Positions 1 through 3,221 of a stretch of 64,000 bases of DNA are shown in pieces; the first letter of the stretch is position 1; the number at the start of each line of letters is the position of its first letter. Source of the stretch: a virus. Where the stretch lies: the UHGV virus genome UHGV-0240317. The stretch is one strand, 5' to 3'. A program made the position numbers and the translations under genes. The notes under the pieces were generated by a model. It saw only the letters and a list, made by a program, of their open reading frames with translations, searched no databases and was not told the origin of the DNA.

Positions 1-166
1 ACGCATTGTCACTCAGTAAGAAATCCGAGTTCATTGATTATGTCAATGGATTTGGTTTTAAGTTTGATGAGAGTATGAATCTTAAAAAACTTAAGAACCT
101 ACTTAAGACCAAAGCTTAAGTGTGAATAGGGGCTGATGCCCCTTTAACTATTTATAAGGATATTTA

Positions 167-538
167 ATGAAAGCTAAGAGTGCAAAAGACTTTTATTGCT
201 TCCTACAATCCTATATCAATTCCGTGCAAAATGGTGAAAGGTACAACCTTAATGATGTTATCCCAACACCTTTGACATGGAGACTCAGTAAATGGCCTGA
301 AGAAGATATTACACCAACAAGCGAACAACGCACCTACAAACCTGAAATCAATATTCCAGACTCTGAGAATCTATTATATCCAATGTTCCATATTGTTGGT
401 CTTGGAAGATTCCTTATGGATATCCAGTATGTAATTGGTAAAGGTTATAAGGTTAAAGGTATCGTTGTTGGTGATGTATCTCCGCATCACAAAGGTTATT
501 TTAGACTAAACGCACATTTAGAGGCTAAAAAGAAATGA
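167..538 (+). CDS. hypothetical protein; paralog of the N-terminal domain of the next gene
   Basis: ORF track; residues resemble the first ~120 aa of the 535..1917 product (MKAKSAKDF... vs MIKAKTYPDF..., shared YKP, MDLQY/MDIQY motifs). Confidence 0.6.
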   Translation: MKAKSAKDFYCFLQSYINSVQNGERYNLNDVIPTPLTWRLSKWPEEDITPTSEQRTYKPEINIPDSENLLYPMFHIVGLGRFLMDIQYVIGKGYKVKGIVVGDVSPHHKGYFRLNAHLEAKKK

Positions 539-1917
539 TTAAAGCAAAGACTTACCCAGACTTCAAAGAGTTTGTGAAGGGTTTCATTGCAAATGTAAAG
601 GCTGGTAAGAGATATGATTTTAGAACATATCAAGAGGCTATTTTACCACTCACCTATAGCTCGTATTGGCCTGAAGCTGATATTGCAGAAGTTGAGAAGT
701 TTGACTACAAACCAGACTACAAAGTCCCATTTAGTGATGAGTTGCTTTACAGCGTTGGCGCTCAAATGAGAACTTCTGACTTCTTCATGGACTTACAATA
801 TGCAATTATCAATGGTAAAGACGTTGATACTGTTTATTGTGAATGGCTGGCAAGAGTTAAACCGTTCTCAATGTTGAATGCTAAGTTGAAGGATGCTATC
901 AAGCCACCATCAATCACTCAGCAACCAACAAATCAAACAGTAAATGAAGGTGGCACACTTACCCTAAGCGTTATTGCAACCAATGCCACTGGCTATCAAT
1001 GGAAAAAGGATGGTGAGGATATCACTAGTGCCACATCTGCAACCTACACAAAACAGTCTGTAGCACCTTCTGATGCTGGTTCTTATACTTGTGTTGTGTC
1101 TGGAGAGGCTGGGACAAGTGTTACCTCAGATGCGGCAACAGTTACTGTCAACGCACTGCCTGTGATTACACAGCAACCTTCTAGCCAGACCATCAATGAG
1201 GGTGGAAACATCAGCTTGGAAGTGACTGCAACAGGTGCAACGGGTTACCAGTGGAAGAAAGATGGCTCTGACATTCCTTCGGCTACAGAGGCTACCTATA
1301 GCAAGTCTGGTGCGCTGCCAGCAGATGCAGGTTCATACACTTGCGTTGTAACAGGTGCAGGTGGTTCTGTAACATCTAATGCTGCAACGGTTACTGTGAA
1401 TGCACTTCCTGTCATCACTCAACAGCCAACTGCAAAAACAGTTAATGAGGGTGGCACACTGACACTTGACATCGTTGCAACAGGTGCAACAGGCTACCAG
1501 TGGAGCAAAGATAATGTAAGTATTGGTGGAGCAAACTCTGCAACCTTTACCAAAGCTGGTGTAACGCCTGCTGATGCTGGGTCTTACAAATGTACGGTGA
1601 CAGGTGCTGGTGGTGCAGTGGAATCTAATGCCGCTGTAGTAACTGTGAACACGCTTCCAGTAATTACTCAACAGCCAACCAATCAAGAAATCACTGAAGG
1701 TGAGACCTTAACGCTGAATGTTGTAGCAACAGGTGCAACAGGTTACCAGTGGAAGAAAGGTGAGGAAGACATTCTCGATGCAACTACTGCAACTTACACC
1801 AAAGAAGGTGCAACCGCTGCTGATGCAGGAAGCTACACCTGTGTAGTTACTGGTGCAGGTGGTTCTGTAACATCTAATGCAGCAACGGTTACTGTTAACC
1901 CAGCAGGAGGGGCATAA
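535..1917 (+). CDS. protein with unknown N-terminal domain followed by four tandem Ig-like (I-set-like) repeats
   Basis: four ~80 aa repeats each with PVITQQPT..NEGG..ATGATGYQWKKDG..AGSYTCVVTGAGGSVTSNAATVTVN. Confidence 0.8.
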   Translation: MIKAKTYPDFKEFVKGFIANVKAGKRYDFRTYQEAILPLTYSSYWPEADIAEVEKFDYKPDYKVPFSDELLYSVGAQMRTSDFFMDLQYAIINGKDVDTVYCEWLARVKPFSMLNAKLKDAIKPPSITQQPTNQTVNEGGTLTLSVIATNATGYQWKKDGEDITSATSATYTKQSVAPSDAGSYTCVVSGEAGTSVTSDAATVTVNALPVITQQPSSQTINEGGNISLEVTATGATGYQWKKDGSDIPSATEATYSKSGALPADAGSYTCVVTGAGGSVTSNAATVTVNALPVITQQPTAKTVNEGGTLTLDIVATGATGYQWSKDNVSIGGANSATFTKAGVTPADAGSYKCTVTGAGGAVESNAAVVTVNTLPVITQQPTNQEITEGETLTLNVVATGATGYQWKKGEEDILDATTATYTKEGATAADAGSYTCVVTGAGGSVTSNAATVTVNPAGGA

Positions 1918-2381
1918 TGCAACTCTCACAGAAAGGTTTAGAAGCTATTAAGTTCTTTGAAGGTCTTAAGTTAGAGGCTTACGAAGATTCTGCTGGAATC
2001 CCAACAATTGGGTATGGGACAATCCGTATTGGTGGTAAACCTGTTAAGATAGGTATGGAAATTACTGCTGAGCAAGCTGAACAGTATCTTCTCGCAGATG
2101 TTGAAAAGTTTGTTGCAGCAGTGAACAAAGCTATCAAGGTTCCAACTTCTCAGAATGAGTTCGATGCACTTGTAAGTGAAACATACAACATCGGTATCAC
2201 AGCTATGCAGGATTCTACATTTATCAAGCGCCACAATGCTGGTAATAAGGTAGGTTGTGCAGAAGCTATGCAGTGGTGGAACAAGGTTACAGTCAAAGGT
2301 AAGAAGGTCACTTCAAACGGACTGAAAAACAGACGTAGAATGGAAGCTGACATTTATCTTGACAGTGTATATCCAAAGTAA
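1917..2381 (+). CDS. endolysin, GH24 (T4 lysozyme-like) muramidase
   Basis: EGLKLEAYEDSAGIPTIGYGT aligns with T4 lysozyme [21 protein letters not shown] (catalytic Glu/Asp/Thr); 154 aa. Confidence 0.9.
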   Translation: MQLSQKGLEAIKFFEGLKLEAYEDSAGIPTIGYGTIRIGGKPVKIGMEITAEQAEQYLLADVEKFVAAVNKAIKVPTSQNEFDALVSETYNIGITAMQDSTFIKRHNAGNKVGCAEAMQWWNKVTVKGKKVTSNGLKNRRRMEADIYLDSVYPK

Positions 2382-2389
2382 TATCTTCA

Positions 2390-2417
2390 TAGGCTCCTTC
2401 GGGAGCCTTTTTATTTT
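2390..2417 (+). terminator. rho-independent terminator
   Basis: hairpin AGGCTCC-ttcg-GGAGCCT followed by T-run. Confidence 0.7.
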
Positions 2418-2431
2418 CTAAGGAGAAAACT

Positions 2432-2830
2432 ATGAAACTTTGGGCTAGTGACTTTGGAACTTTTAAGTACACTCGTGATGGTTCAATGGTGAGGATTATT
2501 GGCAGCCAGATTGTAGTAAGTGGTGATGAGGTTTGTACAAAGTTCACTGTAGAGTTAGCTGAGCTATCGCCTATTACCCGTTCTAAAAATGGGTTTTTCA
2601 GGTTCGAGATTTACAAAGTAGATGAGTACGGTCGGTTCAACCCTCTTGGGGAAAGTGGATTAGACATTATTTCTGAACACCCATTGACAGCAGAGCAATT
2701 GTCGGGTTATTATAAAACTCTACTTGAAAGAGAGTTAGCAACCCATGAGTGTGAAGCAAAATATCATATAGAGCGTTGCGAAACTCTCAAAGAAAAGATA
2801 AAACTAGCAGAGAGAGGTGATTATGAGTAA
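2432..2830 (+). CDS. hypothetical protein
   Basis: ORF with AGGAG RBS upstream; operon context. Confidence 0.6.
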   Translation: MKLWASDFGTFKYTRDGSMVRIIGSQIVVSGDEVCTKFTVELAELSPITRSKNGFFRFEIYKVDEYGRFNPLGESGLDIISEHPLTAEQLSGYYKTLLERELATHECEAKYHIERCETLKEKIKLAERGDYE

Positions 2831-3221
2831 AGAAATCCCAGTATTAGTTGATGTTACACCTTATGCAAACTGGCTTGATGCAGCATATGCAGAAGCAAAG
2901 ATTTTTGAATTTGACGGTATTCTAAGATTAAAATTTATTAATAATGGTAAAACCCTGTTCCATGTACGTGATGATGCAGATGGTTGTCCTGTTTTTGGAA
3001 TCTTTGATGAAGTATACCCGAAATACGCAATCCACTACCCAGATGGCGGTGAAGACTGGACAACCAAATCAATCTTTGATGAGCTTAATGGTGTTCCATT
3101 TGAGCAAGAAGAAGAAGAAGCGGAAGAACCTGTTGAACTCACCTTCACTTTTATCAAAGAAGAGAAAGTGGGTGACTTATCAGTAACTGAAGCAATTCAA
3201 GTCTCACAGGTTATTCGTTAA
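2817..3221 (+). CDS. hypothetical protein (acidic)
   Basis: ORF with GAGGTGA RBS; overlaps neighbours by a few nt. Confidence 0.6.
   Translation: MIMSKEIPVLVDVTPYANWLDAAYAEAKIFEFDGILRLKFINNGKTLFHVRDDADGCPVFGIFDEVYPKYAIHYPDGGEDWTTKSIFDELNGVPFEQEEEEAEEPVELTFTFIKEEKVGDLSVTEAIQVSQVIR

What the first reader, a model, noticed from the sequence alone, without database searches (positions are those of the whole stretch)
167..1917. Tandem paralogous genes upstream of the endolysin, one expanded with four Ig-like repeats
ORF 167-538 and the first ~120 aa of ORF 535-1917 are clearly related. The second gene then adds four near-identical ~80 aa Ig-like repeats, also repetitive at the nucleotide level (about 900-1900). 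Ig-like domains in phages usually decorate virions and bind carbohydrates weakly. Sitting directly upstream of the endolysin, in frame-overlapping arrangement, is unusual for a capsid-decoration gene, so the role of the shared N-domain is open. The repeats may also be prone to copy-number variation.
Basis: seen in the sequence. Interest (0 to 1): 0.45.

Follow-up and report, generated by a model that had tools for sequence, protein, structure and literature searches.

The report
Known capsid decoration gene plus small paralog
The long gene is the already solved, Hoc-like capsid decoration protein of Felix O1-type phages. The short gene upstream is an undescribed copy of its capsid-binding domain alone, which seems to be a dispensable, non-virion accessory protein.

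Summary
The window is a Felixounavirus (Felix O1-like myophage) genome. ORF 535-1917 is the "Hex-Dec" hexamer decoration protein. It is 95.7% identical to Bas63 Hex-Dec (PDB 9NCF chain S) and homologous to Sf14 gp20 (PDB 9C2D chain S).

The "open" N-domain is the published capsid-binding domain (CapBD). It plugs the centres of the 60 pentamer-proximal hexamers of the T=9 capsid. Four Ig-like domains follow it. These repeats are real but only 64-72% identical at the protein level and 63-67% at the DNA level, so they are not near-identical. Copy number runs from 1 to 4 in relatives, which is also published. The position upstream of the endolysin is conserved across Ounavirinae.

ORF 167-538 is a real paralog of the CapBD alone:
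- BLASTP against ORF2 gives 6e-17.
- An AlphaFold model matches 9NCF_S and 9C2D_S at TM 0.68.
- It is under purifying selection (dN/dS 0.13).

I found no description of it in the papers searched. It lacks the two Arg residues that anchor gp20 to the capsid. Its ortholog is absent from the published Felix O1 virion protein list. Neither cryo-EM study reports density on the hexamers that Hex-Dec leaves free. It is deleted in 19 GenBank phages, and in one phage it has recombined with Hex-Dec. Its function is unknown.

Overall the finding is ordinary and already known, with one minor open point.

The parts
128..145 (+). Terminator-like hairpin (AGGGGC-TGAT-GCCCCT followed by TT) that ends the upstream gene's transcript. 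It lies just before ORF1.
   Evidence: Read from the sequence. The equivalent site in phage AYO145A is annotated as a rho-independent terminator. It was not flagged by the consensus scan because its T-run is short.
167..538 (+). ORF1, 123 aa, pI 9.1. A stand-alone paralog of the Hex-Dec capsid-binding domain. It is the ortholog of Felix O1 ORF37, Bas63 bas63_0125 and Sf14 FDI99_gp021.
535..903 (+). ORF2 residues 1-123, the capsid-binding domain (CapBD) of Hex-Dec. Arg79 and Arg107 are present.
   Evidence: 98.4% identical to the Bas63 CapBD. Matches PDB 9NCF_S and 9C2D_S. The anchor residues are described in PMC11821841 and are present here.
904..1914 (+). ORF2 residues 124-460, four tandem Ig-like (I-set/Ig_3) domains at nt 904-1155, 1156-1404, 1405-1653 and 1654-1914. 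This region is acidic (pI 4.2).
535..1917 (+). The whole Hex-Dec gene (460 aa, Hoc-like hexamer decoration protein), often mis-annotated as 'tail protein'.
   Evidence: phmmer against PDB 9ncf_S gives E = 7.5e-286. Global identity is 95.7%. The mis-annotation is noted in PMC12609058.
1917..2381 (+). Endolysin (GH24 phage lysozyme, 154 aa). Its start overlaps the Hex-Dec stop (TAATG), and a GGAGG Shine-Dalgarno sequence sits inside the last Hex-Dec codons.
2391..2418 (+). Intrinsic terminator (AGGCTCC-TTCG-GGAGCCT followed by TTTTTATTTTC) that closes the three-gene unit.
   Evidence: The equivalent site is annotated as a terminator in AYO145A.

Best explanation
**What the unit is.** The region is a compact, terminator-bounded unit of a Felix O1-like phage, made of ORF1, Hex-Dec and the endolysin. 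In Felix O1 the first two genes peak late in infection.

**ORF2 (Hex-Dec).** This part is shown by solved structures of near-identical proteins. The N-terminal 120-residue domain binds as a monomer into the centre of the 60 pentamer-proximal (facet-edge) hexamers of the T=9 capsid. In Sf14 gp20 it is anchored by Arg79 and Arg107 to Asp221 of the capsid protein. Four flexible, acidic Ig-like domains project outward.

By analogy with T4 Hoc, the Ig string most likely mediates weak adhesion to glycans or surfaces, or controls particle aggregation. That step is inferred, not shown. Copy number changes through in-register recombination between the diverged repeats.

**ORF1.** This is an old tandem duplicate of the capsid-binding domain alone. 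It keeps the fold and the hydrophobic core but has replaced both anchoring arginines and has become basic. The evidence points to an accessory protein that peaks late and is not a stoichiometric part of the mature virion.

My best guess, at low confidence, is that ORF1 still binds capsid-protein hexamers or Hex-Dec transiently during head maturation. In that role it would act as a chaperone, or as a gatekeeper of which hexamers get decorated. It would not be a structural plug.
For: **ORF2 identity**
- 95.7% identical to Bas63 Hex-Dec (9NCF_S, E = 7.5e-286), and homologous to Sf14 gp20 (9C2D_S, E = 3e-166).
- The structure, binding site and distribution on the capsid come from PMC12609058 and PMC11821841.
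- The protein is in virions. Felix O1 gp36 was found at 44% coverage (PMC3185647), and Sf14 gp20 was detected by mass spectrometry.
- Arg79 and Arg107 are present in ORF2.
- Ig architectures in relatives are 1-2-3-4, 1-2-4, 1-4 and a 1/4 hybrid.

**Gene unit**
- The overlaps and gene order are conserved in 27 of the related loci examined.
- Terminators flank the unit.
- Felix O1 ORFs 36 and 37 are maximally expressed at 60 min.

**ORF1**
- It is a paralog of the CapBD, and its model matches the CapBD fold at TM 0.68.
- dN/dS is 0.13, against 0.05 for the CapBD and 0.07 for the endolysin.
- It is conserved in Felixounavirus and Mooglevirus, with a more distant copy in P0099.
- The Arg79 equivalent is Gly and the Arg107 equivalent is His or Gln across the whole ORF1 clade.
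- Felix O1 gp37 is absent from the virion protein list.
- The VpaE1 virion set adds only gp54, gp58 and gp68 to the Felix O1 set, so ORF40 is inferred to be absent.
- Neither cryo-EM study reports density on the other hexamers.
- ORF1 is a pseudogene in 19 GenBank phages.
Against: **ORF2.** I found no evidence against the identity. The adhesive function of the Ig domains is untested in this phage group. A PhageMaP screen found Bas63 g124 non-essential on three E. coli hosts and more important on S17-1.

**ORF1.**
- The transient-binder idea has no direct support.
- The Felix O1 proteome listed only proteins with at least 25% coverage, so a low-copy 14-kDa protein could have been missed.
- Icosahedral averaging weakens a monomer that sits on a true three-fold axis.
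- The AlphaFold model is only moderately confident (pLDDT 67).
- The "not described" statement rests on full-text searches of open-access papers only.
Confidence: 0.85

Rival explanations
1. ORF1 is a second, Ig-less decoration protein. It would plug the 20 true three-fold (facet-centre) hexamers that Hex-Dec does not occupy, so that every hexamer of the T=9 capsid carries a CapBD-type plug.
For: - It has the same fold as the CapBD.
- It sits in the same translationally coupled unit, and the Felix O1 ortholog peaks late.
- Exactly one class of hexamers is left free by Hex-Dec.
- ORF1 is basic (pI 9.1), and the Sf14 paper describes the capsomer centres as lined with Asp residues.
- A monomer on a three-fold axis would be blurred by icosahedral averaging.
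Against: - Both cryo-EM studies report Hex-Dec/gp20 only on the edge hexamers. The Bas63 paper states that no density is seen on the others, and the Sf14 authors compared the true three-fold hexamer directly without describing an occupant.
- Felix O1 gp37 is not among the virion proteins, although the 9.7-kDa gp23 was detected.
- Both anchoring arginines are replaced.
- Nineteen sequenced phages lack the gene.
Confidence: 0.1
2. ORF1 has taken on a function unrelated to the capsid. It would use the small helix-and-sheet domain to bind a different partner, such as a host factor, a defence sensor, or the endolysin or lysis machinery.
For: - Sequence change after duplication is faster than in the CapBD (dN/dS 0.13 against 0.05; identity to Bas63 is 85% for ORF1 against 98% for the CapBD).
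- The capsid-anchoring residues are lost and the charge has shifted.
- The protein is not reported in virions.
- It is dispensable in a natural lineage, as is typical of accessory or counter-defence genes.
- It is linked to the endolysin.
Against: - No similarity to any other family was found. Pfam gave nothing, and the only PDB fold matches at E <= 0.001 are the two Hex-Dec chains.
- There is no transmembrane segment or lysis-type feature in the sequence.
- The tight coupling to Hex-Dec, and a natural in-frame ORF1/Hex-Dec chimera, suggest the two halves remain compatible.
Confidence: 0.3
3. ORF1 is a functionless duplicate on its way to being lost.
For: It is deleted in 19 phages and merged into Hex-Dec in one. 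It is also less constrained than its neighbours.
Against: - The reading frame is intact at 122-124 aa in about 233 of 253 phage records, across at least two genera.
- dN/dS is 0.13 at dS of about 0.76, which indicates clear purifying selection.
- Twenty-seven residues are invariant between the two paralog families.
Confidence: 0.1
4. ORF1 and ORF2 are joined by a programmed -1 frameshift at T AAA AAG (526-532), giving a tandem CapBD-CapBD-Ig protein.
For: An AAAAAG run lies just before the ORF1 stop, and ORF2 is in the -1 frame. The only stop in that frame (526-528) is upstream of the slip point.
Against: - The motif is not conserved. It reads GCTGAAAAG in L011 and L014, and GCTAATAAATGA or GCTAAGAAATGA in the Mooglevirus-like loci, while ORF1 and the ATGA overlap are kept.
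- The first heptamer base is T, not A.
- The ATGA overlap is the ordinary signature of translational coupling.
Confidence: 0.02

Closest known systems
Bas63 (Escherichia phage JohannRWettstein) Hex-Dec, PDB 9NCF chain S (Hodgkinson-Bean et al., Sci Adv 2025, PMC12609058)
   Same: It is the ortholog of ORF2. Both are 460 aa and 95.7% identical (CapBD 98.4%). Both have four Ig-like domains in the same 1-2-3-4 order, the same neighbours (the ORF1 ortholog bas63_0125 upstream and the endolysin bas63_0123 downstream) and the same overlaps.
   Different: About 20 substitutions, mostly in Ig3 and Ig4. The upstream paralog is only 84.6% identical. The paper does not discuss that paralog (no occurrence of 'paralog').
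Sf14 gp20, PDB 9C2D/9C3A chain S (Mooglevirus; Subramanian et al., Commun Biol 2025, PMC11821841)
   Same: It has the same CapBD (86% identical) with Arg79 and Arg107, and the same gp21-gp20-endolysin gene order.
   Different: Three Ig-like domains instead of four. They are more diverged, at 60-72% identity to the window's repeats.
[quoted passage not shown]
   Same: It works alike. It is a monomer at hexamer centres with a small globular capsid-binding domain and a string of acidic Ig-like domains, and it is dispensable in the laboratory. PHROG 'Hoc-like head decoration' families match the Ig region.
   Different: The domain order is reversed, with the capsid-binding domain at the C-terminus in Hoc. 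The Bas63 paper describes the CapBD as larger, topologically distinct and pseudo-C2 symmetric, with minimal sequence conservation. No Hoc chain appeared among the PDB sequence hits to the CapBD. According to the papers cited, Hoc decorates all hexamers, whereas Hex-Dec decorates only the 60 edge hexamers.
T5 pb10 (decoration protein; PDB 5LXK, 8ZVI)
   Same: [quoted passage not shown] Its Ig domain matches ORF2's Ig domains (E = 2e-11 and 3e-11).
   Different: It has a single Ig domain. Its N-domain gave no sequence match to the CapBD or to ORF1.
Kolesnikvirus (Erwinia phage phiEa21-4 group) CapBD plus Big_2 protein, e.g. SPARTY_111
   Same: It is a distant CapBD homolog (36% identical) placed directly upstream of the endolysin.
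   Different: It carries one Big_2-type Ig domain instead of I-set repeats. It has no ORF1-type paralog upstream and no gene overlap with the lysin.

Membership tests
Ounavirinae Hex-Dec / Sf14 gp20 hexamer decoration protein (ORF2) | N-terminal domain of about 120 aa homologous to the cryo-EM-resolved CapBD | tested here: met
   phmmer gives E = 7.5e-286 to 9ncf_S and 3.2e-166 to 9c2d_S, starting at residue 1 of both. The CapBD is 98.4% identical to Bas63.
Ounavirinae Hex-Dec / Sf14 gp20 hexamer decoration protein (ORF2) | Arg79 and Arg107, which salt-bridge to capsid-protein Asp221 | tested here: met
   Both residues are present in ORF2. Their role is described in PMC11821841.
Ounavirinae Hex-Dec / Sf14 gp20 hexamer decoration protein (ORF2) | C-terminal string of one to four Ig-like domains | tested here: met
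   Four Ig_3/I-set/Ig_2 stretches, with boundaries.
Ounavirinae Hex-Dec / Sf14 gp20 hexamer decoration protein (ORF2) | Gene lies outside the structural module, immediately upstream of the endolysin | tested here: met
Ounavirinae Hex-Dec / Sf14 gp20 hexamer decoration protein (ORF2) | Monomer bound at the centres of the 60 edge hexamers of a T=9 capsid | not testable with these tools
   Shown for the 95.7%-identical Bas63 protein and for Sf14 gp20 by cryo-EM. It is inferred for this phage.
Hex-Dec decoration protein (applied to ORF1) | CapBD fold | tested here: met
   The AlphaFold model (pLDDT 67, pTM 0.68) matches 9ncf_S and 9c2d_S at TM 0.68 over 117 columns with probability 1.00. These are the only PDB hits at E <= 0.001.
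Hex-Dec decoration protein (applied to ORF1) | Capsid-anchoring Arg79 and Arg107 | tested here: not met
   Across all ORF1 orthologs, including the distant P0099, the aligned positions are Gly for Arg79 and His, Gln or another residue for Arg107.
Hex-Dec decoration protein (applied to ORF1) | Ig-like domains | tested here: not met
   The protein is 123 aa and ends straight after the CapBD. It has no Pfam hit.
Hex-Dec decoration protein (applied to ORF1) | Presence in purified virions | not testable with these tools
   From the literature only. Felix O1 gp37 is not in the virion list although gp36 is. No extra hexamer density is reported in Bas63 or Sf14.
T4 Hoc family | N-terminal Ig domains followed by a C-terminal Hoc capsid-binding domain, with sequence homology in that domain | tested here: not met
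   The domain order is reversed. The PHROG Hoc-like hits listed cover only the Ig region (residues 121 onward). No Hoc chain appeared among the PDB hits to the CapBD or ORF1. The Bas63 paper reports a distinct topology.
Phage tail protein (the usual database annotation; phrog_3995 'tail protein') | Location in the tail | tested here: not met
   The orthologs are modelled on the capsid in 9NCF and 9C2D. The Bas63 paper calls the 'tail protein' label a mis-annotation.

The most novel reading that the evidence does not exclude
ORF1 is a previously unnoticed class of protein, a free-standing capsid-binding-domain paralog that is not itself a decoration. It would act late in infection on capsid-protein hexamers or on Hex-Dec. 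In that role it might determine that only the 60 edge hexamers are decorated, chaperone Hex-Dec before capsid expansion, or mask free capsid protein. If so, decoration patterns on phage heads could be actively regulated by a dedicated paralog, rather than set only by hexamer geometry.
Probability: 0.2. Interest if true: 0.45.

Novelty: already known. Interest (0 to 1): 0.2.

Why it matters
For the main gene it matters little. Its structure, binding site, variable Ig number and unusual genome position were all published in 2025. The practical value is a corrected annotation, since the gene is a capsid decoration protein and not a "tail protein".

The residual point is the conserved CapBD-only paralog, for which I found no published description. 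If it modulates which hexamers are decorated, it would be a simple handle on how Hoc-like proteins are loaded. That would be relevant to phage display on Felix O1-type capsids. Natural knockouts and one natural chimera already exist and would allow an inexpensive test.

Tried and rejected
1. **Programmed -1 frameshift fusing ORF1 to ORF2 at T AAA AAG.** Rejected because the motif is not conserved among relatives that keep both genes.

2. **A shared late-promoter motif upstream of ORF1 (TATTTATAAGG).** It has three matches in the window against about two expected by chance, so it is not significant. The sigma-70-type scan found no promoter-like site upstream of ORF1 and no more sites than in shuffled sequence. 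The promoter of the unit remains unidentified.

3. **Distant relatives of the CapBD.** A profile search of 1.84 billion representative proteins found only 12 at E <= 0.001. Those traced to phage records are Ounavirinae-type, so there is no link to a broader family.

4. **Ig copy-number distribution from the word-indexed search with the CapBD.** That search returned almost only one-Ig proteins of about 210 aa, so I did not use it for the distribution. I used the fetched loci instead.

5. **PhageMaP fitness for Bas63 g125.** It is not given in the text and no supplement is held.

6. **Sf14 virion mass-spectrometry evidence for gp21.** It appears in neither the table excerpt I read nor the held supplements.

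7. **Classifying ORF2 as T4 Hoc.** Rejected on domain order and on the lack of CapBD homology.
Full report
**What the window is.** The first 2.7 kb match about 250 GenBank phage records. All are Felix O1-like myophages (Ounavirinae, mostly Felixounavirus), and the best match is 93% identical (Escherichia phage pinkbiff). The annotated relatives show the same local gene order. A 196-aa hypothetical gene comes first, followed by a terminator. Next come a 123-aa gene, a "tail protein" with Ig domains and the endolysin, and a second terminator closes the unit. This block lies next to the tRNA cluster and far from the head and tail genes.

**Checking the observation.** ORF1 (167-538, 123 aa) and ORF2 (535-1917, 460 aa) exist as described.
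- They overlap by ATGA. ORF2's stop overlaps the endolysin start (TAATG), and a GGAGG sequence sits just upstream of that start.
- BLASTP of ORF1 against ORF2 gives 37% identity over 101 residues, E = 6e-17.
- Each protein also hits the other's PHROG family.
- ORF2 contains four Ig-like domains (Pfam Ig_3, I-set and Ig_2, four stretches each; Ig_3 E = 9e-44).
- Using the recurring ITQQP motif, I placed the repeats at nt 904-1155, 1156-1404, 1405-1653 and 1654-1914, giving 83-87 aa each.
- The repeats are not near-identical. Pairwise identity is 64-72% in protein and 63-67% in DNA. Tandem Repeats Finder reports only 2.3 copies of a 249-nt unit at 70% matches.

**What ORF2 is.** A sequence search of the PDB gives E = 7.5e-286 to chain S of 9NCF (Bas63 icosahedral capsid, "immunoglobulin-like domain protein", 460 aa). 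It gives E = 3e-166 to chain S of 9C2D/9C3A (Sf14 capsid, gp20). Global identity to the Bas63 protein is 95.7%, and 98.4% in the first 123 residues.

The Bas63 paper (PMC12609058) names this protein Hex-Dec and reports the following:
- The CapBD sits tightly in hexamer centres and is followed by four predicted Ig-like domains that were too flexible to resolve.
- It binds only hexamers at facet edges, and no density is seen on the other hexamers.
- The gene lies more than 10 kb outside the structural module.
- It is usually mis-annotated as a tail protein.
- The number of Ig domains varies from one to four across the genus.

The Sf14 paper (PMC11821841) adds the following:
- There is one gp20 per asymmetric unit, which means 60 per capsid.
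- gp20 was detected in virions by mass spectrometry.
- The binding domain is the N-terminal 118 residues.
- Arg79 and Arg107 form salt bridges to Asp221 of three capsid-protein subunits.
- In the true three-fold hexamers these Asp residues are shifted away.

Both arginines are present in the window's ORF2. Felix O1 gp36, the ortholog, was found in virions at 44% coverage in 2010 (PMC3185647; gene identities checked). The "open" N-domain therefore has a known and structurally defined role.

**Copy-number variation.** In the 27 sequences where ORF2 could be read through (the window plus 26 related loci), the protein is 460-461 aa in 5, 377 aa in 10, 294-298 aa in 9, and 210-211 aa in 3. These lengths correspond to 4, 3, 2 and 1 Ig domains.

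I assigned each half-repeat to its nearest repeat in the window. The results are:
- 3-Ig proteins are 1-2-4.
- 2-Ig proteins are mostly 1-4.
- The clearest 1-Ig case (L023) is a 1/4 hybrid.

This is the pattern expected from in-register recombination between repeats.

Four-Ig proteins are not unique to Bas63. The window, pinkbiff and two IMG/VR contigs (L005, L009) also have four. They fall into two architectures, 1-2-3-4 (window, Bas63) and 1-2-X-4 (pinkbiff type).

**Position next to the endolysin.** The ORF1-ATGA-ORF2-TAATG-endolysin arrangement, or a near variant with a 2-9 nt gap before the endolysin, is kept in all 27 related loci where both junctions could be read. These include the Mooglevirus-like loci. 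In Kolesnikvirus (Hafnia phage SPARTY) a distant CapBD plus Big_2 protein also sits directly upstream of the lysin. The linkage is therefore ancestral in the subfamily and not a peculiarity of this genome.

RT-PCR in Felix O1 placed ORFs 36 and 37 among the genes maximally expressed at 60 min, and the lysin ORF35 at 25 min. I could not identify the promoter. A candidate motif was not enriched, and the consensus scan found no promoter-like site upstream of ORF1.

**ORF1, the CapBD-only paralog.** This is the one part for which I found no published description. Neither structure paper contains the word "paralog". The Sf14 paper has no mention of gp19 or gp21 in its main text, and its supplement mentions only SPP1 gp21. 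The Bas63 paper numbers its proteins differently, so its gp21 is a baseplate hub protein. The PhageMaP preprint does not mention g125.

Evidence that ORF1 is a real gene:
- Intact orthologs of 122-124 aa are present in about 233 of 253 matching phage records.
- The large protein collection contains 51 clusters of orthologs.
- Median dN/dS is 0.13 at dS of about 0.76, compared with 0.05 for the CapBD and 0.07 for the endolysin.

Evidence that ORF1 has the whole CapBD fold:
- It aligns along the full domain, and 27 residues are invariant across both paralog families. Most are hydrophobic or structural.
- An AlphaFold model of moderate confidence (pLDDT 67, pTM 0.68) matches 9NCF_S and 9C2D_S at TM 0.68 over 117 columns. 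No other PDB entry matches at E <= 0.001.

Evidence that ORF1 is not simply a shorter Hex-Dec:
- The equivalents of Arg79 and Arg107 are Gly and His/Gln in every ORF1 ortholog, including a distant one (P0099). Arg79 is kept in most Ig-bearing CapBDs, including the Kolesnikvirus one.
- ORF1 is basic (pI 9.1), whereas the CapBD is near neutral (pI 6.3).
- Its Felix O1 ortholog gp37 is absent from the virion proteome.
- The VpaE1 virion set differs from the Felix O1 set only by gp54, gp58, gp68 and the missing gp23 homolog, so ORF40 was not found there either. This is an inference, with gene numbers taken.
- Neither cryo-EM study describes an occupant of the hexamers that Hex-Dec leaves free.

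Evidence that ORF1 is dispensable:
- Nineteen GenBank phages from E. coli, Salmonella and Shigella share one allele in which the start codon is lost and about 227 bp are deleted. The last roughly 75 nt upstream of the Hex-Dec start are kept. Examples are SP116, mio, REP5-12 and Z31.
- In Salmonella phage SP3_SHan-2021 the two paralogs have recombined at the shared WPE(E/A)DI motif. The result is a single gene encoding ORF1 residues 1-48 joined to Hex-Dec residues 51 onward.

**Age and breadth of the family.** A profile built from both paralogs found only 12 cluster representatives at E <= 0.001 among 1.84 billion proteins. They comprise the following:
- ORF1-type proteins.
- Hex-Dec proteins with one to three Ig domains.
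- A Kolesnikvirus type with a Big_2-like domain.
- A few remote proteins of 150-230 aa, one of which has a lysine-rich tail instead of an Ig domain.

Outgroup CapBDs resemble the Hex-Dec CapBD (36-38% identity) more than ORF1 (26-27%). This fits faster change in ORF1 after the duplication. The duplication predates the Felixounavirus/Mooglevirus split.

**Mechanism.** For ORF2 the mechanism is taken from the solved orthologs. The CapBD plugs the 60 edge hexamers, and the acidic Ig string projects outward. Its likely function is adhesion or control of aggregation, as in T4 Hoc. That is inferred by the authors of both papers and by me, and it is not demonstrated. The only functional datum is that Bas63 g124 is dispensable on three laboratory hosts and more important on S17-1.

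For ORF1 I favour a non-virion accessory protein made late in infection. It may still recognise capsid hexamers or Hex-Dec transiently, as a chaperone or gatekeeper. This is a guess. The rivals are listed separately with their evidence. They are a plug for the 20 three-fold hexamers, a function unrelated to the capsid, and a decaying duplicate. A frameshift fusion of the two genes was considered and rejected.

**Verdict.** The main feature is already known, and the window's copy is a near-identical ortholog of a solved protein. The conserved CapBD-only paralog, together with its natural knockouts and chimera, is a small and cheap-to-test open point. Interest is 0.2.

Noticed in passing
L036:2501-3379 (Salmonella phage SP3_SHan-2021, MW296865): A single 292-aa gene replaces ORF1 and Hex-Dec. 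ORF1 residues 1-48 are fused in frame, at the shared WPE(E/A)DI motif, to Hex-Dec residue 51 onward plus two Ig domains. DNA identity switches from ORF1-like to ORF2-like at about nt 150. It is a natural recombinant between the paralogs, unless it is an assembly error.
   Followed up: partly
L031:2806-2997 and L032:2806-2997, equivalent to window 167-538: Nineteen GenBank Felixounaviruses share one ORF1 pseudogene allele, with the start codon lost and an internal deletion of about 227 bp. They include Z31, SP116, P54, mio, REP5-12, EcF-vB, Tf, fBSPA4, fKMPT1 and two CECAV phages. In Z31, Hex-Dec itself is also split into pieces of 134 and 55 aa.
   Followed up: yes
window 1405-1653 compared with L001, L005 and L009: Four-Ig Hex-Dec proteins come in two architectures. 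The window and Bas63 share a distinct third repeat. Pinkbiff, the closest genome overall, carries a different third repeat that resembles repeats 1 and 2. This contradicts the published remark that only Bas63 has four Ig domains.
   Followed up: partly
window 1917-2381 (endolysin; Bas63 g123 by gene numbering): The PhageMaP preprint lists Bas63 g123 among genes that become more dispensable in several defence-system hosts, and it tested g123 expression with the retron Ec67. If g123 is the endolysin, as the numbering implies, the lysozyme may trigger defence systems.
   Followed up: no
window 2817-3221: The 134-aa ORF two genes downstream of the endolysin is annotated 'D-alanyl-D-alanine carboxypeptidase' in pinkbiff but 'hypothetical protein' in other records. 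It has an acidic E-rich tract, and the label looks unreliable. I did not check it.
   Followed up: no
P0105 (153 aa, metagenomic; found): A remote CapBD homolog carries a lysine- and serine-rich low-complexity tail instead of Ig domains. The capsid-binding module is therefore combined with different outward-facing appendages.
   Followed up: no
L001:18615-20324, corresponding roughly to window 6.6-8.3 kb: Relatives have a stretch of about 1.7 kb with no annotated genes, between converging gene blocks. Repeat regions are annotated there in pinkbiff. I did not examine it in the window.
   Followed up: no
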